From: a candidate division FCPU426 bacterium
GTDB taxonomy: Bacteria > Oederibacteriota > JAAXVQ01 > JAUVAV01
Direction of reading: 5' to 3'
NCBI GenBank assembly: GCA_030637655.1
Contig: DAOWGI010000092.1
Location: 26,161 to 90,160, forward strand
DNA: 64,000 bases
Shown here: in pieces, positions 1-62,153 of the stretch
Layout: each line of letters opens with the position of its first letter
Position numbering within the stretch: position 1 is the first letter of the stretch
Position numbers and translations under genes: made by a program
The notes under the pieces: model-generated
What the model was told of the DNA's origin: nothing
Database searches by the model: none
The model's input: only the letters and a program-made list of their open reading frames with translations

Positions 1-3000
1 TTTTGAATTTTTTCGGATTATAGTCAGCAGATGGTTTAGATTTAACAACCTGGTTAGTCTTGGAATCATATCCAATTACCACAGGTGCGGCACCGACTTT
101 TCCCCTTAACAACTTCTTTATTTTTCCCGCTGGAAGAAACACATGGCAAACAGGAGGATTTTCAAATGAAGTAAAAGTCTCGGTTTTATCTTCAATATCA
201 AATACGTATTGTTGTGTTTTAGATTCGATTGCTTTTCGTGCGTATTCCTTCTGCTTTTTATTGTATTCCTGAATCGGTTTATCAGCGCGTTCAAACCCAA
301 CATTGGGAATAATTGTCCGATCACCGGTTGGTATTCCAAAAACATTTAATATATCAACATCAAATCCCCAACAGTTATCGCCAAACAGTTTATCGTACAA
401 AATATACGGCCCATTTATTTTTCCCTTTGCCATTTCAATAATCTTCGTATCAGTCGCCGGATCGGTCAAAATAACCTGAACCCGGTCATATCCAGGATGT
501 GCTGCAAAAAATTCACCTAATGTTGGATATGGTTTTTCGGGGTGCGTATTCAAATGATTTTCAGCTTTCAAGTGATTACCCAATCCATATTGGCCCAAAT
601 AATATTTCAAAGCTATTACATCCATCTGCTTGCCGTCTTTGCTGAAATAATGCCAGCCGCGCACATCATCGCCGACAAGTAAAGCGCTATGGCCTGCATA
701 GCCCCATGGCAAGGGAACTGCGTTCGAATTATTAAGTACTATTGTATATAATCCAAAGGGATCCATATAATTCACAGAATTATTTTCTGCAAATTCATAG
801 AGATTCTGCCCGCCATAATACCCAATCGGATCTGATTGAATAAACCTTCCCAGCACAGGATCATAATGCCTGGCCCGGAAATAATAGAGACCTGATTCCC
901 GGTCATATTCCCGGCCTGTAAACAGGTATCTGTTTGCAGCCTTTGGTTTTTGTGCCGGCTGTCCAAAAGTATCATACGTATATTTTTCTAAAATCCCGGT
1001 CTCATCCATCACAGCCGAAATGGATTTTTGCGCATCTTTTAAGTAATAATATTGTTTGTCTTTACTGATTTTAATCAGCAGGTCATCCACGCCGGGAGCA
1101 TATACATACTTGGCAATAATGTTATTTTGGTTGTCCAAATCAGCAATAATATTGTGCTGAGCATAGACATACTGTTCCTTTATTTCATCATTGACAGCTC
1201 TTTTTGTCCGCCTGCCAAAGCCATCGTAAGAATAAGCATATTTCCCTGAATTCGTCCGTATTTCCAGCAAGCGATTTTCAAGGTCATATTTATATTCCTT
1301 TTTATTCTTCCCGCTTCCGCTTAGCACAAGATTTCCATTTTGATCGTAAGCCAACCGGCTGGAATTGACTCGCATATATTGATTCAAAGAATTGGCTTGA
1401 TAATTAAATTTAGTATTCCCTATTTTTGTCTTAACCCTGTTTCCCAGGGCGTCATATTGATAGGACTCAACCGGGCGATCAGGCTTCCCGGCCTGGATCA
1501 CTTGATATTTATCATCGTATATATATTGCGTCATACCTTCATCACTATATTTTCTGGTCACATTTCCTATTTCGTCGTAATCATAACGCACAAAGGATAT
1601 TTGCTTACCCTTGAAGTAATTTTTAATTTCTTTAATCCAGGAAGTATTATAATAGAGATAGGATGTCCGGATATTTTCACCAAGATATAGAAATTTCCTC
1701 CTGGACAGCTCATCCCATTCCATTTTCACAAGCTGCTTACCCGCCGGATCACTTATTTGAACCAACCGATCTGAAGCATCATAGGAATATGTAAGATAAT
1801 ATCCATCCGGATAGGTCAAACGGCTGATATTGTTGCTGCCAGCATAATAATAGGATACTCTCATCTTCCTGTGATCAGTAACATTTTCAATCCGGCCCAA
1901 GTCATCATAAATATATTTCAATATTCCTTCACCATCATTTATTTGTTCAATCTGTGATTTCCAGTTGTAGGTATAGCTGATTATTGCTTGATCGGCATAT
2001 TGTTTTTCAATCAACCGGTTCAATTTGTCATATTTCAGAATCTGTTTTTTTCCATTACGATCTGTTTGGGATATGACATTGCCATAGCGGTCATACTCCA
2101 AGCGCTCGCTTGATCCATCCGGATAGGTTATTTTGATCAATTGATTATTATCATCGTATAAATACAGGGTTTTATTGTTTTTAGGATCTGTAATGGAAAG
2201 AATATTGCTTTTTCCTGAAAGCAGGTTATCCGCTGTTTCGTAGGTATACTGTGTGCTATATCCCAGAGGATTTGTAAATGTAACCACATTTCCAAACACA
2301 TCATATTCATATTTTGAGCTATTGCCTTTGGGATCTTTAACCTGACTGAGATTGTTCATGGCATCAAATTCATATTCAATGCTGTTTCCCGCAGGTTTTA
2401 TCTGCTTTGCCAATTGTCCCTGTCGATCATATTCAAAACGCGTTATTTCACCGGCTGCATTTGTTTTTTTTGATATTTTACCAAATTTGTTATAGCTATA
2501 CGTCTCCTGGGTGTTGTCCGGAAATATTCTTCTCGTCACCTCGCCCAGCTCATTGTACTCAATCCGCGTGGCATGGCCTTGGGAATTAATGATTTCTATT
2601 GGTTGGCCGTATTGATTGTAAGTAATTTTTGTTTCCCGGCCCAGGGCATCAATGACTTCAATCAAATTGCCCTGTTTGTCATATTTATATAGAGTTTTAT
2701 TGTTTTGCGGGTCTGTAACCAAAACCGGCCGGCTGCTTCCCTTCTGATATTGATATTTCAGCACCTGGTCTAAAGCATCTTTTTTCACAAGAATATTTCC
2801 GAGTGAGTCATATTGATATCGCGTTACTCGTTCGCCGCTTTCCCTCAATTCCAACAAATTATTATTGTCATCCCAGACATGCGTAGTCGGCACTTCATTT
2901 TTCAGACTGCCGGTTATGGCTTTGATTCTATTTCTTCCATCAAAATAATAATTGGTTTTCCGTCCTAAGTTATTGCTTACCATAACTACTGCGTCGCCAT

Positions 3001-3916
3001 ATATCAGCGTGGTAAATTGCTTCAAAGGATCGAGTAAACGCGTCACTTTCCCCTGACTGTTGTATTCAATTCCATATTCCCCCTCATTTTGTCCCATATA
3101 TTTGACAAGCCGCTGTTGGGCATCATATTCATATCGAATGGATTTCCGCAAAGAATTCGTGACTTTGACCAGCAATTGATTTTCATTATAGAAATACCGC
3201 CATTCGCGGCCGGCCGGGTCCTTCATTTTCCATAATTTTCCATCCGTATTATAATCAAGTTTAAAAACCCGGCCGACTGTATCAACTATTTCCTCTGGTA
3301 ATTTATTTTTATATCGAACTGTAATTTGGTTGTTGTTTCTGTCTTTTATGCTAATTATTTCCCCTTGTTTAGCATAGACTGTTTCGTTCCCATTTTTATC
3401 AATTCCGGCGAAGCCTATGGAAGTTTCTTTTATTTTTGTATAAACTCCTCTCGGAGTTATATATCCTCCATTCGCAGCAAGTTCATAGTAATCCATACCG
3501 CCATCAAGCTTATAGACAGACAAGCCGCCAGTGGTATGTTTAATCACTTTTTGGTCTAAAAATGTAGTCCAACCTCTTCCGCATATATTTTTCCCGGCTT
3601 TTTCCAATATTTCCCTATTCGTTTGTTGGCGACTGTTGTAAATACGATGAAATGCCATATCCAGACCACGGCCTGGAAAAACCATATCTTCTGAAGTTAT
3701 AATCAAATTCCCGTTAAACAACGTCACCGGCAAAGTCGTATTTGGTTGGCAAGGCTGATAGCCGGTTTTGTTATGAGTAATTTCTTTGCTCAATGTTTCC
3801 TCAATTTGATTGGATTTTCCAGACAGGTTTGTTGCTGCCTCCCTTGCATGGCAAGCGGATATGAAACTGCAAAACAACGAAACCATCATCAATAAGACAA
3901 TTTGTTTTAGTTTCAT
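1..3916 (-). CDS. RHS/YD-repeat polymorphic toxin, lipoprotein-type N-terminus; partial, C-terminal toxin domain continues past window start
   Basis: ATG at 3916 (MKLKQIVLLMMVSLFCSFISACHAR, signal peptide with Cys). No stop in this frame down to position 1, so the ORF is absent from the track because it runs off the edge. Many YD/RHS repeats of the type RYxYDxxGN. The RHS core end NYMDPFGLY is encoded at about 750-775. A C-terminal domain of about 250 aa of unknown family follows it. Region GC is roughly 35%, against roughly 50% elsewhere in the window. Confidence 0.85.
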   Translation of the reverse strand, partial: MKLKQIVLLMMVSLFCSFISACHAREAATNLSGKSNQIEETLSKEITHNKTGYQPCQPNTTLPVTLFNGNLIITSEDMVFPGRGLDMAFHRIYNSRQQTNREILEKAGKNICGRGWTTFLDQKVIKHTTGGLSVYKLDGGMDYYELAANGGYITPRGVYTKIKETSIGFAGIDKNGNETVYAKQGEIISIKDRNNNQITVRYKNKLPEEIVDTVGRVFKLDYNTDGKLWKMKDPAGREWRYFYNENQLLVKVTNSLRKSIRYEYDAQQRLVKYMGQNEGEYGIEYNSQGKVTRLLDPLKQFTTLIYGDAVVMVSNNLGRKTNYYFDGRNRIKAITGSLKNEVPTTHVWDDNNNLLELRESGERVTRYQYDSLGNILVKKDALDQVLKYQYQKGSSRPVLVTDPQNNKTLYKYDKQGNLIEVIDALGRETKITYNQYGQPIEIINSQGHATRIEYNELGEVTRRIFPDNTQETYSYNKFGKISKKTNAAGEITRFEYDRQGQLAKQIKPAGNSIEYEFDAMNNLSQVKDPKGNSSKYEYDVFGNVVTFTNPLGYSTQYTYETADNLLSGKSNILSITDPKNNKTLYLYDDNNQLIKITYPDGSSERLEYDRYGNVISQTDRNGKKQILKYDKLNRLIEKQYADQAIISYTYNWKSQIEQINDGEGILKYIYDDLGRIENVTDHRKMRVSYYYAGSNNISRLTYPDGYYLTYSYDASDRLVQISDPAGKQLVKMEWDELSRRKFLYLGENIRTSYLYYNTSWIKEIKNYFKGKQISFVRYDYDEIGNVTRKYSDEGMTQYIYDDKYQVIQAGKPDRPVESYQYDALGNRVKTKIGNTKFNYQANSLNQYMRVNSSRLAYDQNGNLVLSGSGKNKKEYKYDLENRLLEIRTNSGKYAYSYDGFGRRTKRAVNDEIKEQYVYAQHNIIADLDNQNNIIAKYVYAPGVDDLLIKISKDKQYYYLKDAQKSISAVMDETGILEKYTYDTFGQPAQKPKAANRYLFTGREYDRESGLYYFRARHYDPVLGRFIQSDPIGYYGGQNLYEFAENNSVNYMDPFGLYTIVLNNSNAVPLPWGYAGHSALLVGDDVRGWHYFSKDGKQMDVIALKYYLGQYGLGNHLKAENHLNTHPEKPYPTLGEFFAAHPGYDRVQVILTDPATDTKIIEMAKGKINGPYILYDKLFGDNCWGFDVDILNVFGIPTGDRTIIPNVGFERADKPIQEYNKKQKEYARKAIESKTQQYVFDIEDKTETFTSFENPPVCHVFLPAGKIKKLLRGKVGAAPVVIGYDSKTNQVVKSKPSADYNPKKFK

Positions 3917-4309
3917 TTATTTTTCTCCATCAATTTTGATATTATCATCTTTTTTAATTAAGTAATAAATCCCAGAAACAAAAATATAATAACTGACTCT
4001 GATTACATATAGGTTAATTGTCTTCGCATCAAACTGTAAAACTTCTCCTTTGTAAAATCTGATTAAATAATCAGCTATTTCAATTTGTATTAATCCAGTA
4101 AACATTATCAAGGCAGACACAGATGAGGATAGCCTCATTAACTTTGATATATTGATATTCAACAAAATATAGACAGCCGGATAAATAACAAATATGATCA
4201 AAATCATTATTAATAATTTTATATCTGTTAACTCCCCCCTCCGGCTATGCATAAATATCATAAACAAGATCGGAAATAAATAATTGACAATTAGCAATAT
4301 CCTCCCCAT
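3917..4309 (-). CDS. small polytopic membrane protein (about 130 aa, ~4 predicted TM helices), translationally coupled to RHS gene
   Basis: The ORF track gives 3917..4324. The first ATG (MRRCD) reads ATGAGGAGGTGTGAC, which is itself an AGGAGG Shine-Dalgarno placed 6 nt before the second ATG (MGRILLIVNYLFPILF...). The start is therefore probably at 4309. The stop TAA abuts the RHS ATG as TAAATG. The sequence is highly hydrophobic and AT-rich, like the RHS gene. Confidence 0.5.
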   Translation of the reverse strand: MGRILLIVNYLFPILFMIFMHSRRGELTDIKLLIMILIIFVIYPAVYILLNINISKLMRLSSSVSALIMFTGLIQIEIADYLIRFYKGEVLQFDAKTINLYVIRVSYYIFVSGIYYLIKKDDNIKIDGEK

Positions 4310-8055: not shown

Positions 8056-8112
8056 GTGTTACCTGCTTACTTTCTTGTAATATGTCAGTAAACTGCGCAG
8101 TTAAACAAAGAT

Positions 8113-8186
8113 TGTCATTCCCGAGGGTTTAATCGGGAATCTGGTTTTTTAAACCATATCCCCGATACAAGCATTCGGGGATGACA
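8113..8186. repeat. MITE-like 74-bp palindromic element, copy 1
   Basis: Sequence: ttgtcattcccgagggtttaatcgggaatctggttttttaaaccatatccccgatacaagcattcggggatgacaa. It has imperfect terminal inverted repeats (TGTCATTCCCGAG / TTCGGGGATGACA). A near-identical copy lies at 26176-26251. Confidence 0.8.
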
Positions 8187-8229
8187 AACAAAAAAAACAT
8201 GACTGACCTGTTACATTTTCTTGGTTATT

Positions 8230-9102
8230 TTAATTGACTGCCATCTGGGAAATAGTGTATTCCAAGGCAGTGTCCAAATCCCAGAGTTTATTTTCAGTTA
8301 ATACACTCTGCGCTTTATCTATGTTCAAACCACTGTTTAAGGGGCGGGGCGCCTTTTGTTTGAATTCGGCTGTGGTCACGCTTTTAACGCTTTCCGGGTC
8401 TCCACCCAGTTTGGCAACAATCCGCCGGGCCAATTCATCTTTACCCACCCGGGTTGAACCCACGGTATGATAAATGCCGGTACACTCTTTTTCAATCAAC
8501 TCCGTTACCACGCGTGCCAGATTGACCGCCTGGGTGGGATTTCCAATTTGATCGCCGGGCACAGTAATGGGTTCACCGCAATTGACACGCTTTAATATTT
8601 GCATGAAAAAATTCATGGAATTGGGTAAAAAGGAGAAAACAAACATAGGCCGTACCACCAGATGTTTTTCCACTATATCCGCGACAATTTTTTCGCCTTC
8701 TAATTTGGTTTGCGCATACACGGATTTCGGATTAGGCGTATCGGTTTCGCTATAGGGACCCTGGTCTCCGGCAAAAACATAGTCAGTCGAAAAAAAGGTC
8801 AGGCCGGCTTTGATCTGTTGGCAAGCCTGGGCCACGTTTTTGGCGCCCTGTACATTAATGGCTTCTGCTTCATCCGGTTTTTCTTCACACCGGTCCACAT
8901 GAGTCATGGCCGCTGTTAAAATAACCTGTTCCGGTTGAACTTCCCGCAAATGTCGTGTTACCGCCGGCGCATCCCGAATATCCAAAGGCGGGAGCTGATT
9001 GCCCGGCAGCATGGCTGTGCCAAAAACCTGATGCTTAGCTGCCGGCGCGCGCAGAAAAAAGGTTCCGACCTGCCCTTCAGCGCCAATAACCAATATTTTC
9101 AC
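8230..9102 (-). CDS. rfbD: dTDP-4-dehydrorhamnose reductase
   Basis: GTG start with a GGTGAAGG SD. MKILVIGAEGQVG Rossmann motif. Homology to RmlD/RfbD runs along the full length. Confidence 0.85.
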   Translation of the reverse strand: MKILVIGAEGQVGTFFLRAPAAKHQVFGTAMLPGNQLPPLDIRDAPAVTRHLREVQPEQVILTAAMTHVDRCEEKPDEAEAINVQGAKNVAQACQQIKAGLTFFSTDYVFAGDQGPYSETDTPNPKSVYAQTKLEGEKIVADIVEKHLVVRPMFVFSFLPNSMNFFMQILKRVNCGEPITVPGDQIGNPTQAVNLARVVTELIEKECTGIYHTVGSTRVGKDELARRIVAKLGGDPESVKSVTTAEFKQKAPRPLNSGLNIDKAQSVLTENKLWDLDTALEYTISQMAVN

Positions 9103-18530: not shown

Positions 18531-18680
18531 GGGCGACCGCGAGGGTCGCCCCTACATTTTTCTTGGGCAAATCGTCCTTCTGCCAGGGCGCTGCTAGCTG
18601 CACCCCTACATTTTTCACGAGCCATACGTTGCAATGGGTCACGGACACACGGACGAATACAAGATTCGCCCCTACATATT
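18531..18680. repeat. cluster of three REP-like units each ending in CCCCTACAT(T)TT
   Basis: Units are gggcgaccgcgagggtcgcccctacattttt, ...ctgcacccctacattttt and ...ttcgcccctacatattt. They sit in the argG-argH intergenic region at irregular spacing. Confidence 0.7.
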
Positions 18681-25531: not shown

Positions 25532-26067
25532 AACTCTTCCACCATAATTTCCTTATTGGTATAAATACAAATATCCGCCGCAATCAGCATAGCCTCCCTG
25601 GCAATCTCACTTACCGATAGTTGGGTATGTTGCAGCATAGCCCGGGCAGCGGCCAAAGCATACGCTCCTCCGGAGCCAATGGCCACAGCCGCCTCATCCG
25701 GTTCGATCACTTCTCCGGAACCGCTAATAACCAACGAGCGTTCCTTATCCGCGATAATTAACAGAGCATCCAAACGCCGCAAATATTTATCAGTCCTCCA
25801 ATCCTTGGCCAACTCTACTGCCGCGCGTGTCAGATTGCCATGATACTGCTGTAGTTTTTCTTCAAAGCGTTCAAACAGTGTGAAAGCATCCGCCGCGGAT
25901 CCGGCAAAGCCGGCCAGTATCTTTCTTTCACCCAGCCAACGAATCTTTTGGGCTTTCCGTTTCATCATAATATTGCCTAAAGTTACTTGTCCATCCCCGG
26001 CCAAGGCCATTTGATCCTTACGGCGCACGGATAAAATAGTAGTAGCACGAAATTGTTCATTTGTCAT
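25528..26067 (-). CDS. hslV: ATP-dependent protease subunit HslV (with short N-terminal extension before the Thr-Thr catalytic N-terminus)
   Basis: ...[31 protein letters not shown]... shows HslV homology. The ATG at 26067 was chosen. The track ORF extends to 26151. Confidence 0.88.
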
Positions 26068-26175
26068 AACCAATCTGCCTTTCTCTTTTTTAATCGTCAT
26101 TTTATGGGTTGTCATTCCCCAACCGGAAATGAATATTGAATGCCGGTACACTTTAGGCAGTCCGCATGCTTTCTT

Positions 26176-26251
26176 TTGTCATTCCCGAGGGTTTAATCGG
26201 GAATCTGGTTTTTTAAACCGTATCCCCGATACAAGCATTCGGGGATGACAA
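26176..26251. repeat. MITE-like 74-bp palindromic element, copy 2, plus partial copy at 26302-26334 and REP-B fragment at 26283-26299
   Basis: The 75 bp differ from the copy at 8113-8186 by 1-2 nt. The half copy reads atccccgacaaaatcattcggggatgacaaac. Confidence 0.8.
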
Positions 26252-26354
26252 CTTAAAAAATACCCTTTCCGCAACAGAAACTAATTAAACGCCCCTACCA
26301 CATCCCCGACAAAATCATTCGGGGATGACAAACATGAATTGTGACAGAGCCTCT

Positions 26355-27218
26355 TCATGCCCGGGGATGTGCTTTGCGATAGACGGACTTCAGTTTTTCT
26401 GCTGTGACATGCGTATATATTTGCGTAGTGGTCAAATTGGCATGCCCCAACAACTCTTGCACTGAACGCAAATCCGCGCCATTATCCAGCAAATGCGTCG
26501 CAAACGAGTGGCGCAAACTGTGCGGTGACAAACCGCGTTTGGCGCCCACTTGCCGAATATATTTATCCGCCAAGCGTTCCACGCTTCGCGGTGTGAGTGT
26601 GCCACCGCGCGCGTTTCTAAACACGTTCGCTCCCATAGGCGACGGATCAGCTTGTAAATATCTCTGCAAAGCCGCAATGGCCGGTTCACCCAGTGGAACA
26701 ATGCGTTCCTTACGCCGTTTGCCCAGCACCCGAACCAATCCGCAGGCAAAATCAATAGCCTCCGGTTTTAGGGTTGTCAATTCGGACAACCGCATACCGG
26801 TTGAATACAAGGTCTCCAGAATCGCACAATCCCGTTTTCCTAAACGTGTTTGTGTATCCGGCGCTTGCAACAATGCCAGTATACTTTTCCGGTCAAAAAA
26901 ACGCGGTAGACGGTGTTCCCCTTTAGGTGTGCTTACCGTGGCAGCCGGATTCTCCAACACGATACCTTGCCGGAGCAAAAACCGATAAAACGTTCTCAAG
27001 CCGGCCAGGCGTCTGACAATGCCGGCTCGCGCACTCTGACGTTCGCTGAGTTTAGCTAAATAAGCACGTATGATACGAAATGTCACTTCGCGAGGAAATA
27101 ATTTACCGGCAAAAACCTGGAAATCACGCAAATCCTGACCATAGGCCCTGATGGTATGTACAGAGGCATTGCGACCGTGCTGTAAATAATCAAGAAACGC
27201 CTGTACGGCATCGTTCAC
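26355..27218 (-). CDS. xerC: tyrosine recombinase XerC/XerD family (CodV-like)
   Basis: Catalytic R...HxxR...Y motifs (HSLRHSFATHLL, LGHANLTTTQIYTHV). GTG start with GTGA overlap onto the upstream ORF. Conserved synteny with hslVU. Confidence 0.85.
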   Translation of the reverse strand: MNDAVQAFLDYLQHGRNASVHTIRAYGQDLRDFQVFAGKLFPREVTFRIIRAYLAKLSERQSARAGIVRRLAGLRTFYRFLLRQGIVLENPAATVSTPKGEHRLPRFFDRKSILALLQAPDTQTRLGKRDCAILETLYSTGMRLSELTTLKPEAIDFACGLVRVLGKRRKERIVPLGEPAIAALQRYLQADPSPMGANVFRNARGGTLTPRSVERLADKYIRQVGAKRGLSPHSLRHSFATHLLDNGADLRSVQELLGHANLTTTQIYTHVTAEKLKSVYRKAHPRA

Positions 27219-41623: not shown

Positions 41624-41662
41624 AAGTCGTGCTCACTTTCCAGTATGAATGTGGATATCCAG

Positions 41663-46895: not shown

Positions 46896-46975
46896 GCGTT
46901 TAATTAAACGCCCTTACACGGGCGCACTCAGTGCGCCCCTACAATATCCCCGATTAAAGTCTTCGGGTATGACAA
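46896..46975. repeat. composite repeat: REP-B variant + REP-A unit + half MITE arm
   Basis: gcgtttaattaaacgcccttac is followed by gggcgcactcagtgcgcccctac. The arm atccccgattaaagtcttcgggtatgacaa is homologous to the right half of the 74-bp MITE-like element. Confidence 0.75.
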
Positions 46976-62096: not shown

Positions 62097-62153
62097 GGCG
62101 ACCGCAAGGATCGCCCCTACGGTTAATCACGGGCGCACTCAGTGCGCCCCTAC
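62097..62153. repeat. tandem REP elements: family C (gggcgaccgcaaggatcgcccctac) + family A (gggcgcactcagtgcgcccctac)
   Basis: Seen directly. The terminal CTA of family A forms the lepA TAG stop codon (62150-62152). Confidence 0.8.

What the first reader, a model, noticed from the sequence alone, without database searches (positions are those of the whole stretch)
8113..8186. 74-bp MITE-like element present in two near-identical copies plus degraded half-copies
8113-8186 and 26176-26251 are identical apart from 1-2 nt. Each is bounded by 13-bp imperfect terminal inverted repeats (TGTCATTCCCGAG ... TTCGGGGATGACA) and contains an internal hairpin (ttcccgagggtttaatcgggaa). Half-copies of the right arm occur at 26302-26334 and 46946-46975, each fused to REP units. 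Near-identity of the two full copies implies recent mobility or gene conversion. Both lie in 5' regions, of rfbD and of hslV.
Basis: seen in the sequence. Interest (0 to 1): 0.5.

Follow-up and report, generated by a model that had tools for sequence, protein, structure and literature searches.

The report
Gene-less Ssn nuclease cassette hairpin doublet
The 74-bp repeat is a pair of inverted hairpin motifs that matches the two ends of a small cassette, widespread across bacterial phyla, that carries a GIY-YIG (Ssn-type) single-strand nuclease gene, but here the gene is missing; it is a real repeat of a kind already described, not a classical transposon-derived MITE.

Summary
8113-8186 and 26177-26250 are 73/74 identical. 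Single right-arm-type units lie at 26302-26330 and 46946-46974. A profile search finds exactly these six units in the 64 kb.

Each arm is a complete unit: a TGTC tag, an 8-bp stem starting with AT, an 8-9 nt loop and a 3-nt tail. This is the CGTC/TGTC-tagged REP superfamily (Di Nocera 2013), which includes Neisseria dRS3/NTS and the Ssn-related motifs of Chenal 2025. The 74-mer is a dimer with both tags facing outward.

The same units bracket about 98-aa GIY-YIG (Ssn-like) genes in 80 metagenome loci: 81% have one upstream, 82% one downstream, each in a fixed orientation. The window element aligns to the two ends of one such cassette (L215) at 36/36 and 35/39, with the internal 308 bp, including the whole gene, absent.

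102 dimers show no target-site duplication. Syntenic relatives lack the units. Five contigs from independent assemblies end in or beside the doublets.

No ssn gene lies in the window. A matching cassette exists in the same metagenome sample, but I could not assign it to this genome. Mobilisation by Ssn is inferred, not shown.

Verdict: a new member of a known kind; moderate interest.

The parts
8113..8186 (.). Doublet copy 1: a dimer of two TGTC-tagged hairpin units with both tags facing outward, 17-nt spacer CTGGTTTTTTAAACCAT
   Evidence: Folds as ssDNA at -21.3 kcal/mol (z -5.2). 8112-8187 aligns to the ends of the L215 ssn cassette at 36/36 and 35/39.
8113..8140 (+). Left arm unit: tag TGTC, stem ATTCCCGA / TCGGGAAT, loop GGGTTTAA; tail CTG follows at 8141-8143
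   Evidence: Identical to the unit upstream of the ssn genes in L162 and L215.
8158..8186 (-). Right arm unit (read on the - strand): TGTC, ATCCCCGA, loop ATGCTTGTA, TCGGGGAT; tail ATG
   Evidence: 33/39 identical to the unit downstream of ssn in L213.
26177..26250 (.). Doublet copy 2, 73/74 identical to copy 1
   Evidence: Four independent assemblies break inside it, at 26199-26230. Absent from the orthologous xerC-hslV spacer of relatives.
26177..26204 (+). Left arm unit of copy 2
26222..26250 (-). Right arm unit of copy 2 (tail ACG)
26302..26330 (-). Solo unit with an intact hairpin: TGTC, ATCCCCGA, loop ATGATTTTG, TCGGGGAT, tail GTG
   Evidence: (-9.7 kcal/mol, z -4.0). 33/37 identical to the right end of the L213 ssn cassette.
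46946..46974 (-). Solo unit, slightly decayed: TGTC, ATACCCGA, loop AGACTTTAA, TCGGGGAT, with an A-G mismatch in the stem
   Evidence: (z -1.5)
26109..26135 (+). Possible remnant of a further unit (TTGTCATTCCCCAACCGGAAATGA); not significant
   Evidence: nhmmer E = 4
26281..26298 (-). Truncated GTAG-tagged REP (GTAGGGGCGTTTAATTAG) that starts 3 nt after the solo unit. It belongs to a different repeat family and is listed only because it abuts the unit.
46917..46942 (-). GTAG-tagged REP (GTAGGGGCGCACTGAGTGCGCCCGTG) that starts 3 nt after the solo unit. It belongs to a different repeat family and is listed only because it abuts the unit.
   Evidence: (family D7)

Best explanation
The 74-bp element is an outward-tagged ('head-head') heterodimer of two TGTC-tagged palindromic repeat units. 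The units belong to the CGTC-tagged REP superfamily, the class that contains Neisseria dRS3/NTS and the 'Ssn-related motifs'.

The dimer corresponds to the left and right ends of a roughly 380-bp cassette. In that cassette the same two units, in the same inverted orientation, bracket a roughly 98-aa single-domain GIY-YIG nuclease gene of the Ssn type. The window element is that cassette without its gene, so it is a non-autonomous, MITE-like derivative. The two 'half-copies' are solo units.

Proposed working, by analogy with the characterised Ssn enzymes: when the DNA is single-stranded, each arm folds into its own hairpin, on the strand where it reads TGTC-AT...AT. There it is bound by an Ssn nuclease encoded elsewhere, which nicks a few nucleotides 5' of the tag, just outside the element on each strand. 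The elements are dispersed, multi-copy, were gained in this lineage, and are shared nearly unchanged across phyla.

Shown here:
- the family identity of the units;
- selection for the hairpin;
- the bracketing of ssn genes;
- the correspondence between cassette ends and dimer;
- the absence of target-site duplication;
- absence from syntenic relatives.

Inferred:
- that an Ssn enzyme is present in this genome and acts on these particular units;
- that it, rather than recombination or another enzyme, spreads them.
For: 1. Unit anatomy. All six window units have the tag TGTC, an 8-bp stem beginning AT, and a 3-nt tail. These match the published description of CGTC REPs, including the TGTC variant and the predominance of dimers with tags outside (PMC3733652).

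2. Hairpin under selection. The pattern left two stem positions free. In 154 instances from other genomes they form Watson-Crick pairs in 151 (126 of 129 distinct sequences), using all four pair types.

3. Wide distribution. They come from Nitrospirota, Omnitrophota, Elusimicrobiota, Ignavibacteria, Dadabacteria, Desulfuromonadales, Syntrophus, Leptospiraceae, Anaerolineae and others. 107 outward-tagged dimers of 58-96 bp were found in the fetched loci. The closest, from a Nitrospirota MAG (L070), is 67/74 identical to the window element.

4. Cognate gene.
- In 80 metagenome loci that encode relatives of a 97-aa GIY-YIG protein, a + unit lies within 150 bp upstream in 58 of 72 evaluable loci. 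A - unit lies within 200 bp downstream in 54 of 66. Both are present in 38 of 58. The wrong orientations occur in 11 and 18 loci.
- The density of TGTCAY heads is about 20-fold above the far-flank background and depends on orientation.
- The proteins hit Pfam GIY-YIG at E 1e-14 to 1e-17.
- Their Tyr-Tyr-Glu spacing is 11 and 47 residues. This equals the spacing of the residues mutated in N. meningitidis SsnA (Y6, Y17, E64).

5. Cassette-to-dimer relation.
- Window 8112-8187 aligns to the L215 cassette as 8534-8569 (36/36) plus 8878-8916 (35/39), skipping the 308 bp that hold the whole ORF.
- Neighbouring L215 dimers keep relics of the 3' end of the ORF in their spacers (53/60 identical).
- L162 and L213 cassettes show the same ends.

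6. Dynamics.
- Syntenic relatives (HslV 79-85% identical) have a xerC-hslV spacer of about 65-80 bp, or 205 bp in one case. They carry no units in 15-20 kb, against 287 bp with three units in the window.
- Four assemblies break inside copy 2, and one ends 2 nt from copy 1.

7. Same sample. An ssn cassette whose ends are 33-34 of 39 identical to the window arms is in the same metagenome assembly as the window scaffold. It carries the REP variant GTAGGGGCGTTTAATTAAACGCCCC, seen otherwise only in the window lineage.
Against: - No ssn homologue is encoded in the 64-kb window (tblastn).
- The candidate cassette from the same sample has 37% G+C against 47% for the window. Its tetranucleotide correlation with the window is 0.81, against 0.91-0.97 for the window's own 10-kb chunks. 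Its protein is also not among the NCBI MAG's records. It cannot be assigned to this genome.
- The published search patterns do not match any window unit. The loops are 8-9 nt instead of 4-5 nt.
- The base after the palindrome is reported as the most critical for SsnA binding. It is C only in the two left arms; it is A or G in the other four units.
- I did not compare the GIY-YIG proteins directly with N. meningitidis SsnA or with the cd10448 model.
- No transposition by any Ssn enzyme has been demonstrated. The two predicted nicks lie on opposite strands, which fits no established transposition chemistry.
- The direction of the relation is not established. A gene may have been deleted from the cassette, or a gene may have been inserted into a dimer.
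Confidence: 0.72

Rival explanations
1. It is a REPIN: a doublet of inverted REPs mobilised in trans by a REP-associated tyrosine transposase (RAYT, IS200/IS605-like Y1 enzyme) acting on single-stranded hairpins.
For: - The architecture is the same. Two inverted hairpin repeats with a short spacer can fold either separately or as one long hairpin, and there is no target-site duplication.
- The genome also carries classical GTAG-tagged REPs, which implies RAYT-type activity in the lineage.
- One ssn locus (L216) has a Y1_Tnp gene 2.5 kb away.
Against: - The tag is TGTC, not GTAG.
- The published survey found no RAYT flanked by CGTC-type units (PMC3733652).
- In 80 loci the units bracket a GIY-YIG gene in an orientation-specific way.
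- No Y1 transposase recurs among the ORFs of the 119 unit-bearing loci.
- The L216 Y1 gene is not flanked by TGTC units.
- There is no Y1 hit in the window.
Confidence: 0.08
2. It is a classical MITE: an internally deleted DDE-transposase insertion sequence (IS630/Tc1, IS5 and similar) moved by cut-and-paste, with terminal inverted repeats and target-site duplications.
For: It is small, has inverted ends beginning TGT...ACA, occurs in several near-identical copies and sits in intergenic regions.
Against: - No direct repeat of 2-8 bp flanks the element at any of four boundary offsets in 102 dimers. Observed counts equal the permutation expectation. Neither window copy has one.
- Each 'TIR' is part of an independent hairpin unit that also occurs alone.
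- The gene-bearing counterpart encodes a GIY-YIG nuclease, not a DDE enzyme.
- No transposase family recurs near the units.
Confidence: 0.03
3. It is a host-selected structural or regulatory element (terminator, mRNA-stabilising hairpin or small RNA) that is not mobile. The two copies resemble each other because of functional constraint or gene conversion.
For: - All units are intergenic, mostly just downstream of a stop codon.
- The hairpins are stable.
- A terminator-like hairpin plus T-run is detected in the left arm.
- CGTC REPs have been proposed to act at the RNA level (PMC3733652).
Against: - The terminator-like signal is on the + strand, antisense to every neighbouring gene.
- The element is absent from the same intergenic spacer in four syntenic relatives, so it is not a conserved control element of xerC-hslVU.
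- 85-91% identity with dimers in unrelated phyla, next to unrelated genes, is hard to explain by local regulatory constraint.
- There is no Rfam match.
- A secondary effect on transcripts is not excluded.
Confidence: 0.07
4. The units are attachment or target sites for a site-specific recombinase, as Neisseria dRS3 is for the IS110-like integrase of filamentous phages. This would explain their association with the nearby xerC-like gene.
For: - dRS3, a member of the same superfamily, is a known phage integration target (cited in PMC11893778).
- A tyrosine recombinase gene lies 104 bp from copy 2.
Against: - The xerC-like gene and its position before hslVU are conserved in relatives that lack the units, so it is the housekeeping recombinase.
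- No IS110/Piv-like gene was seen in the window or recurring in the loci.
- This reading would explain use of the units as targets. It would not explain their origin, their dimer form or the bracketing of ssn. It is compatible with the main explanation rather than exclusive of it.
Confidence: 0.04

Closest known systems
CGTC-tagged REP superfamily (Di Nocera, De Gregorio & Rocco 2013, BMC Genomics 14:522; includes Neisseria dRS3 and Rickettsia RPE-4/RPE-6)
   Same: - An unpaired 5' tag; TGTC is a listed variant of CGTC.
- An 8-9 bp stem beginning with complementary A-T in positions 1 and 2.
- A short unpaired 3' tail.
- Mostly organised as dimers with the tags outside ('HH'), often heterodimers, with spacers that have complementary ends.
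- Intergenic, mostly downstream of ORFs.
- Can coexist with GTAG REPs.
   Different: - Loops are 8-9 nt (6-7 if a mismatched ninth pair is counted) instead of 4-5 nt.
- Window tails are CTG, ATG, ACG, GTG or ATT rather than CCA. CCA/CCAG is the usual tail of the same units in other phyla.
- The hosts are an unclassified lineage and many candidate phyla outside the five phyla listed in 2013.
- That paper concluded that these repeats lack a dedicated enzyme.
NTS / Ssn-related motifs and the Ssn family of GIY-YIG single-strand nucleases (Chenal et al. 2025, Nat Commun 16:2388)
   Same: - An oriented hairpin motif: GTCAT, palindrome, ATCYRG-like tail.
- The motif flanks a roughly 94-98-aa single-domain GIY-YIG gene on both sides in inverted orientation.
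- Present in many copies and across phyla.
- The catalytic Tyr-Tyr-Glu spacing of the associated proteins equals that of SsnA.
   Different: - The published SRM, NTS and dRS3 search patterns match none of the window units.
- The base after the palindrome is not C in four of the six units.
- The dimer as a gene-less copy of the cassette is not described in that paper. A text search finds no 'doublet' or 'REPIN', and 'mite' only inside another word.
- No biochemical data exist for this subfamily.
- No ssn gene lies in the window.
REPINs and RAYTs (Bertels & Rainey 2011; Nunvar et al. 2010; Ton-Hoang et al. 2012)
   Same: - A doublet of inverted REPs forming a long hairpin.
- A single-copy gene flanked by the same repeats.
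- No target-site duplication.
- Presumed action on single-stranded DNA.
- Solo units coexist with dimers; in REPIN systems solos are read as remnants of dimers.
   Different: - The tag is TGTC, not GTAG.
- The associated gene is a GIY-YIG nuclease, not a HUH/Y1 transposase.
- REPIN-RAYT systems are described as vertically inherited, whereas these dimers are about 90% identical across phyla.
Neisserial intergenic mosaic elements (NIMEs) built on dRS3
   Same: Hairpin units of the same superfamily, clustered in intergenic regions and interleaved with other repeat families. In the window, the solo units abut GTAG REPs.
   Different: - The dRS3 pattern ATTCCC-N8-GGGAAT is not present.
- There are no 50-150-bp RS blocks between units.
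- Only small clusters occur here.
Classical bacterial MITEs (for example Correia elements, MITEAba12)
   Same: Short and non-coding, with inverted ends, several copies, and a relation to a longer gene-bearing element that shares the termini.
   Different: - No target-site duplication.
- The termini are autonomous hairpins.
- The parent element encodes a nuclease whose role in transposition is unproven.

Membership tests
CGTC-tagged REP superfamily | Unpaired terminal tag CGTC (variants TGTC, CCTC) at one end of the palindrome | tested here: met
   All six window units carry TGTC immediately 5' of the stem. The variant is listed in PMC3733652.
CGTC-tagged REP superfamily | [quoted passage not shown] | tested here: met
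   Stems are ATTCCCGA/TCGGGAAT and ATCCCCGA/TCGGGGAT. The unit at 46946 has one A-G mismatch.
CGTC-tagged REP superfamily | Loop of 4-5 nt | tested here: not met
   Loops are 8 nt (left arms) and 9 nt (all other units), or 6-7 nt if a mismatched ninth pair is allowed. The 2013 paper does note exceptions with other loop lengths.
CGTC-tagged REP superfamily | Short unpaired 3' tail, consensus CCA | tested here: inconclusive
   A 3-nt tail position exists, but it reads CTG, ATG, ACG, GTG or ATT in the window. The same units in other phyla mostly read CCA(G/T).
CGTC-tagged REP superfamily | Predominant organisation as dimers with tags outside (HH) | tested here: met
   The window has two HH dimers and two solos. 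107 HH dimers were found in the fetched loci.
CGTC-tagged REP superfamily | Tens to thousands of copies per genome | not testable with these tools
   Only 64 kb plus flanks of this genome could be read, and it holds six units. Five contigs from independent assemblies end in or beside the doublets, which implies further copies.
Ssn-related motif (SRM) / NTS | Match to the published degenerate search sequence HGTCWYN(0-2)YYVSBRHN(0-5)WNVSBRGN(0-2)RNCYNB (or to NTS) | tested here: not met
NTS with up to 3 mismatches gives 0.
Ssn-related motif (SRM) / NTS | Oriented flanks: GTC just 5' of the palindrome (needed for cleavage) and C just 3' of it (needed for binding) | tested here: inconclusive
   GTC is present in all six units. 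The 3' base is C in the two left arms only, and A, A, G, A in the others. The cassette ends of the L213/L215 subfamily also carry A there.
Ssn-related motif (SRM) / NTS | Units flank a gene for a small single-domain GIY-YIG (Ssn) protein on both sides | tested here: met
   This was met in other genomes: 58/72 upstream, 54/66 downstream, 38/58 both. L162 and L215 carry the exact window left arm upstream of the gene.
Ssn-related motif (SRM) / NTS | An ssn gene in the same genome as the repeats | tested here: inconclusive
   None lies in the 64-kb window. A matching cassette is in the same metagenome assembly (L213), but its composition differs. It shares one REP variant with the window lineage.
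Ssn-related motif (SRM) / NTS | The associated protein belongs to the Ssn clade (cd10448) | not tested
   Only indirect support exists: Pfam GIY-YIG, 97-98 aa, single domain, and Tyr-Tyr-Glu spacing of 11 and 47 as in SsnA. No SsnA sequence or cd10448 model was available for comparison. There is no PDB relative.
Ssn-related motif (SRM) / NTS | Binding and cleavage of the single-stranded motif by the cognate Ssn | not testable with these tools
   This needs EMSA and nuclease assays.
MITE (classical, transposase-derived) | Terminal inverted repeats | tested here: met
   The first and last 12 nt match 11/12, and the arms are inverted over about 36 nt.
MITE (classical, transposase-derived) | Target-site duplication flanking the element | tested here: not met
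   None at either window copy. In 102 dimers, counts of flanking direct repeats (k = 2-8, four offsets) equal the permutation expectation.
MITE (classical, transposase-derived) | An autonomous element with the same termini that encodes a transposase | tested here: inconclusive
   A gene-bearing cassette with the same termini exists. Its product is a nuclease that has not been shown to transpose anything.
REPIN / RAYT | Two inverted REPs with a short spacer, able to fold into one long hairpin | tested here: met
   (minimum free energy -21.3 and -19.5 kcal/mol, z -5.2 and -4.3).
REPIN / RAYT | GTAG-type tag and a cognate RAYT gene flanked by the same REPs | tested here: not met
   The tag is TGTC and the flanked gene is a GIY-YIG. 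No Y1 transposase hit in the window and none recurring in the loci.
Neisseria dRS3 / NIME | ATTCCC-N8-GGGAAT | tested here: not met
   0 matches. The left arm reads ATTCCC-N12-GGGAAT.

The most novel reading that the evidence does not exclude
The unit-ssn-unit cassettes are a real class of mobile element driven by a GIY-YIG single-strand nuclease: they make no target-site duplication and have hairpin ends. The outward-tagged dimers, including the two in this window, are their non-autonomous derivatives. They are currently spreading both within genomes and horizontally between distant phyla. This would give CGTC-type REPs the dedicated enzyme they were thought to lack. It would also add a third enzyme class, beside HUH/Y1 and DDE, to the mobilisers of miniature bacterial repeats.
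Probability: 0.35. Interest if true: 0.65.

Novelty: new member of a known kind. Interest (0 to 1): 0.35.

Why it matters
The repeat class (CGTC/TGTC-tagged REPs) and its link to Ssn nucleases are already published, so the element itself is not a surprise. Three points may be useful to specialists.

1. The dimer can be aligned base for base to the two ends of an ssn cassette, and neighbouring dimers keep relics of the ssn reading frame. This is the IS-to-MITE type of relation. The 2025 paper raised it only as a resemblance, and the 2013 paper could not find it.

2. This long-loop variant escapes the published SRM search pattern, yet it is abundant in Nitrospirota, Omnitrophota, Elusimicrobiota, Thermodesulfobacteriota and other uncultured lineages. 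Published counts of Ssn-related motifs are therefore likely to be underestimates.

3. About 90% identity of a 74-bp non-coding element between unrelated phyla, absence from close syntenic relatives, and near-identity of the two local copies together argue for recent gain. That makes this subfamily a good candidate for testing whether Ssn enzymes move DNA.

In practice, these repeats break short-read assemblies and generate spurious N- and C-terminal extensions on called proteins.

Tried and rejected
- **Rfam.** The gathering search on the whole window gave no hit. An E-value search on 25900-26500 gave only chance-level hits.
- **Recurrent transposase next to the units.** I clustered 1,673 ORFs from 119 loci. 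Only ordinary housekeeping families recur.
- **Cognate genes in the window.** tblastn with three Ssn-like proteins and one Y1 transposase found nothing significant.
- **Target-site duplications.** None at four offsets and six lengths.
- **Terminator function.** The only terminator-like match is antisense to the genes.
- **Assigning the same-sample ssn scaffold (L213) to the window genome.** Composition was inconclusive: G+C 37% versus 47%, tetranucleotide r = 0.81. A shared REP variant is suggestive only.
- **Solved structures.** A sequence search with the L162 Ssn-like protein found none.
- **Supplementary tables of the Ssn paper.** They are not held, so I could not check whether this unit type appears in its lists.
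- **Window LPG-synthase protein as an anchor for other contigs.** It is not on record with that start.
Full report
**Observation**

The two full copies are at 8113-8186 and 26177-26250. They are 73/74 identical; the only difference is A at 8156 versus G at 26220. Right-arm-type copies lie at 26302-26330 and 46946-46974. None of these patterns occurs in dinucleotide-preserving shuffles of the window. A profile built from 132 units of other genomes finds exactly six significant units in the 64 kb (E 1e-9 to 8e-7). It finds nothing else apart from an insignificant fragment at 26109.

One point of gene context needs correcting. All neighbouring genes are on the - strand.
- Copy 1 lies 43 bp downstream of the rmlD/rfbD stop codon and 57 bp upstream of an LPG_synthase_TM gene.
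- Copy 2 lies between a xerC-like gene and hslV.
- The unit at 46946 lies upstream of pilM.

**Anatomy**

The element is not a simple pair of terminal repeats around a core. It consists of two self-contained units in inverted orientation. Each unit has a tag TGTC, an 8-bp stem that begins AT (ATTCCCGA or ATCCCCGA), a loop of 8 or 9 nt, the complementary stem, and a 3-nt tail. A 17-nt spacer with complementary ends (CTGGTTT...AAACCAT) joins the two units.

As single-stranded DNA each arm folds alone (-6.9 and -7.9 kcal/mol, z -3.0 and -4.6). The whole element folds either as one long hairpin or as a branched form (-18.5 to -21.3 kcal/mol, z -4.3 to -5.4). The two 'half-copies' are complete single units. 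The one at 46946 has one A-G mismatch in its stem.

**Distribution**

I scanned one genome per species for TGTCATNCCCGA-N8/9-TCGGGNAT. They come from very diverse, mostly uncultured lineages: Nitrospirota, Omnitrophota, Elusimicrobiota, Ignavibacteria, Dadabacteria, Desulfuromonadales, Syntrophus, Leptospiraceae, Anaerolineae, Calditrichota and others.

The two stem positions that the pattern left free form Watson-Crick pairs in 151 of 154 instances (126 of 129 distinct sequences). All four pair types are used. The hairpin is therefore under selection.

The closest, in a Nitrospirota MAG (L070), is 67/74 identical to the window element. Dimers from Syntrophus, a Schekmanbacteria MAG and an unclassified Proteobacteria MAG are 85-86% identical.

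**Cognate gene**

Clustering all ORFs of the 119 loci showed no recurrent transposase. A literature search on the sequence led to Chenal et al. 2025 (PMC11893778). That paper describes the following:
- Ssn, a family of roughly 94-aa single-domain GIY-YIG nucleases.
- These bind hairpin repeats (NTS in Neisseria, which contains dRS3, and more generally 'Ssn-related motifs') only as single-stranded DNA.
- They cut a few nucleotides 5' of the motif.
- Their genes are typically flanked by the motif on both sides.

One of the 119 loci (L014) has a 97-aa GIY-YIG ORF 50 bp from a unit. Its homologues number more than 8,000 in the protein collection. Many of the called products carry N- or C-terminal extensions that are translated repeat units.

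I fetched eighty metagenome loci that encode relatives of this protein.
- TGTCAY heads in the + orientation are concentrated within 100 bp upstream of the gene (8-10 per kb).
- Heads in the - orientation are concentrated within 150 bp downstream (6-10 per kb).
- The background further out is 0.4-0.5 per kb.
- With a hairpin-aware detector, 58 of 72 evaluable loci have the upstream unit, 54 of 66 have the downstream unit, and 38 of 58 have both. The wrong orientations occur in 11 and 18 loci.
- The proteins hit Pfam GIY-YIG (E 1e-14 to 1e-17).
- Their Tyr-Tyr-Glu spacing (11 and 47 residues) equals that of the residues mutated in SsnA (Y6, Y17, E64).

**Cassette and dimer**

In L162 and L215 the unit upstream of the gene is identical to the window's left arm, including the tail and the start of the spacer.

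Window 8112-8187 aligns to the L215 cassette as two blocks: cassette 8534-8569 (36/36) and 8878-8916 (35/39). The omitted 308 bp contain the whole 98-codon ORF.

Dimers next to the L215 cassette have longer spacers. These retain the last codons of the ORF and the sequence after it (53/60 identical). Dimers therefore exist with different internal breakpoints. This is the pattern expected if they arise from the cassette by internal deletion. The opposite direction, insertion of a gene into a dimer, is not formally excluded.

**Dynamics**

Syntenic contigs of relatives (HslV 79-85% identical) show a xerC-hslV spacer of about 65-80 bp, or 205 bp of unrelated sequence in one case. They contain no unit anywhere in 15-20 kb. 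The window spacer is 287 bp and holds a dimer, a solo unit and a possible remnant.

Four independent assemblies of the same strain break inside copy 2, at window 26199-26230. A fifth contig ends 2 nt outside copy 1. This is the behaviour of a repeat present at more places than the window shows.

In 102 dimers with readable flanks there is no target-site duplication at any of four boundary offsets or six lengths. The only conserved flanking base is T at -1 (86%).

**Is the enzyme in this genome?**

The window has no ssn homologue and no Y1 transposase. The source organism is an unclassified 'bacterium' MAG. Among its nearest HslV relatives is a protein annotated as from candidate division FCPU426.

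A close homologue of the L162 protein (P0255, 90% identical) is encoded on scaffold_2357 of the same metagenome assembly as the window's scaffold_25. It is flanked by TGTCATCCCCGAATGTTTTTATCGGGGATATGGTTTT and AACCATATCCCCGATAAGATCATTCGGGGATGACA. These are 34/39 and 33/39 identical to the window's right arm in its two orientations, and the second is 33/37 identical to the solo unit at 26302.

That scaffold has 37% G+C and a tetranucleotide correlation of 0.81 with the window, so composition does not assign it to this genome. It does carry the REP variant GTAGGGGCGTTTAATTAAACGCCCC. I regard same-genome origin as plausible but unproven.

**Comparison with what is known**

Di Nocera et al. 2013 (PMC3733652) defined two superfamilies of tagged REPs, GTAG and CGTC. 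They describe CGTC repeats as follows:
- the tag is sometimes TGTC;
- stems are 8-9 bp and begin AT;
- loops are 4-5 nt;
- tails are CCA;
- they occur mostly as dimers with the tags outside;
- they correspond to dRS3 and to RPE-4/RPE-6;
- they 'apparently lack a dedicated transposase'.

The window element fits this description except for its longer loops and its tails. The GTAGGGGCG repeats of the window belong to the other superfamily.

The operational definitions in the Ssn paper are not met. The base after the palindrome is reported as the most important for SsnA binding. It is C only in the two left arms. I therefore file the element as a member of the CGTC/TGTC REP superfamily. It works like, and is associated with, the Ssn system, but it is a long-loop subfamily outside the published search pattern. 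I did not compare the associated proteins directly with SsnA or cd10448.

**Mechanism and confidence**

Shown here:
- family identity;
- selection for the hairpin;
- orientation-specific bracketing of the GIY-YIG gene;
- base-for-base correspondence of the dimer to the cassette ends;
- absence of target-site duplication;
- absence from relatives;
- behaviour as an assembly-breaking repeat.

Inferred from the published enzymology: each arm is recognised as a hairpin on the strand where it reads TGTC-AT...AT, and is nicked just outside the element. For an outward-tagged dimer this places one nick on each strand, at the two outer boundaries.

Speculative: that these nicks lead to copying or movement. 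No Ssn enzyme has been shown to transpose DNA, and the geometry fits no established pathway. Alternatives that fit the same data are spread by recombination between incoming and resident DNA, or a role as cleavage marks that limit the integration of single-stranded DNA, as shown in Neisseria.

A terminator role is unlikely, because the only terminator-like signal is antisense to the genes. Rfam has no matching family.

**Verdict**

'MITE-like' is a fair label for its relation to a gene-bearing cassette. The proposed transposase families, the target-site duplications and the 'degraded half-copy' reading are not supported. The kind is already described in two papers. The incremental points are the explicit cassette-to-dimer relation, a long-loop variant missed by the published pattern, and evidence of recent gain and cross-phylum sharing.

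Noticed in passing
window, heads on the - strand at 18555, 18609, 18675, 20755, 26298, 46942, 62120, 62153 and on the + strand at 41662: A second repeat family: GTAG-tagged REPs (GTAGGGGCG, loop, CGCCC), the classical RAYT-associated type, with nine heads in 64 kb. One copy is conserved in the argG-argH spacer of relatives L206 and L208. Contig L120 starts inside one at 62145. No Y1 transposase is encoded in the window.
   Followed up: partly
window 26281-26330 and 46917-46974 (- strand): Both solo TGTC units are followed, after exactly 3 nt (the tail position), by the head of a GTAG REP. It suggests a preferred insertion point or a shared processing site.
   Followed up: partly
window 26109-26135 (+): TTGTCATTCCCCAACCGGAAATGA has a perfect 10-nt match to the unit head followed by a short bulged hairpin. 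It may be a decayed third unit in the xerC-hslV spacer, but the profile score is not significant (E = 4).
   Followed up: partly
L215 5829-9337 (Deltaproteobacteria MAG GCA_029860075.1): The ssn cassette (8534-8916) sits inside an array of at least six dimers of the same two unit types. Their spacers keep relics of the 3' end of the ssn reading frame. This locus appears to show the cassette and several deletion derivatives side by side.
   Followed up: yes
L061 1-1110 (Nitrospirales MAG OZ251550.1): Six tandem repeats of about 205 bp, each containing one 89-bp outward-tagged dimer. Here the dimers have been amplified as part of a larger tandem array.
   Followed up: no
alignment A1 (proteins P0001-P0114): Many called Ssn-like proteins have N-terminal extensions (MFLSGIQ..., ...LSFPWQRESS) or C-terminal tails (DWIPAKNMRE, DWIPDQVGDD, GFPLARE). 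These are translations of the flanking repeat units. They are gene-calling artefacts that inflate apparent sequence diversity.
   Followed up: partly
window 1-4000: A low-G+C stretch (38% versus about 47%) with internal direct repeats (families D2, D13, D16, D18). It overlaps a very long RHS/YD-repeat protein gene according to the gene calls on the matching scaffold.
   Followed up: no
L213 600-1110 and 8099-10461 (same metagenome sample as the window): Next to the ssn cassette lie an apparently disrupted transposase-like ORF pair (one with a weak HTH_Tnp_1 hit), a 2,032-aa ORF with no Pfam hit, and a type II restriction-modification pair (N6_Mtase/Eco57I and BsuBI_PstI). This looks like a low-G+C island.
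   Followed up: no
L203 9795-10000: In one relative the xerC-hslV spacer is 205 bp. It contains other hairpin-like sequences (CGTCATTGTGAGC..., CCCCAGTTTTATAGCTGCTGGGG). The same intergenic site may have been colonised independently by a different repeat.
   Followed up: no
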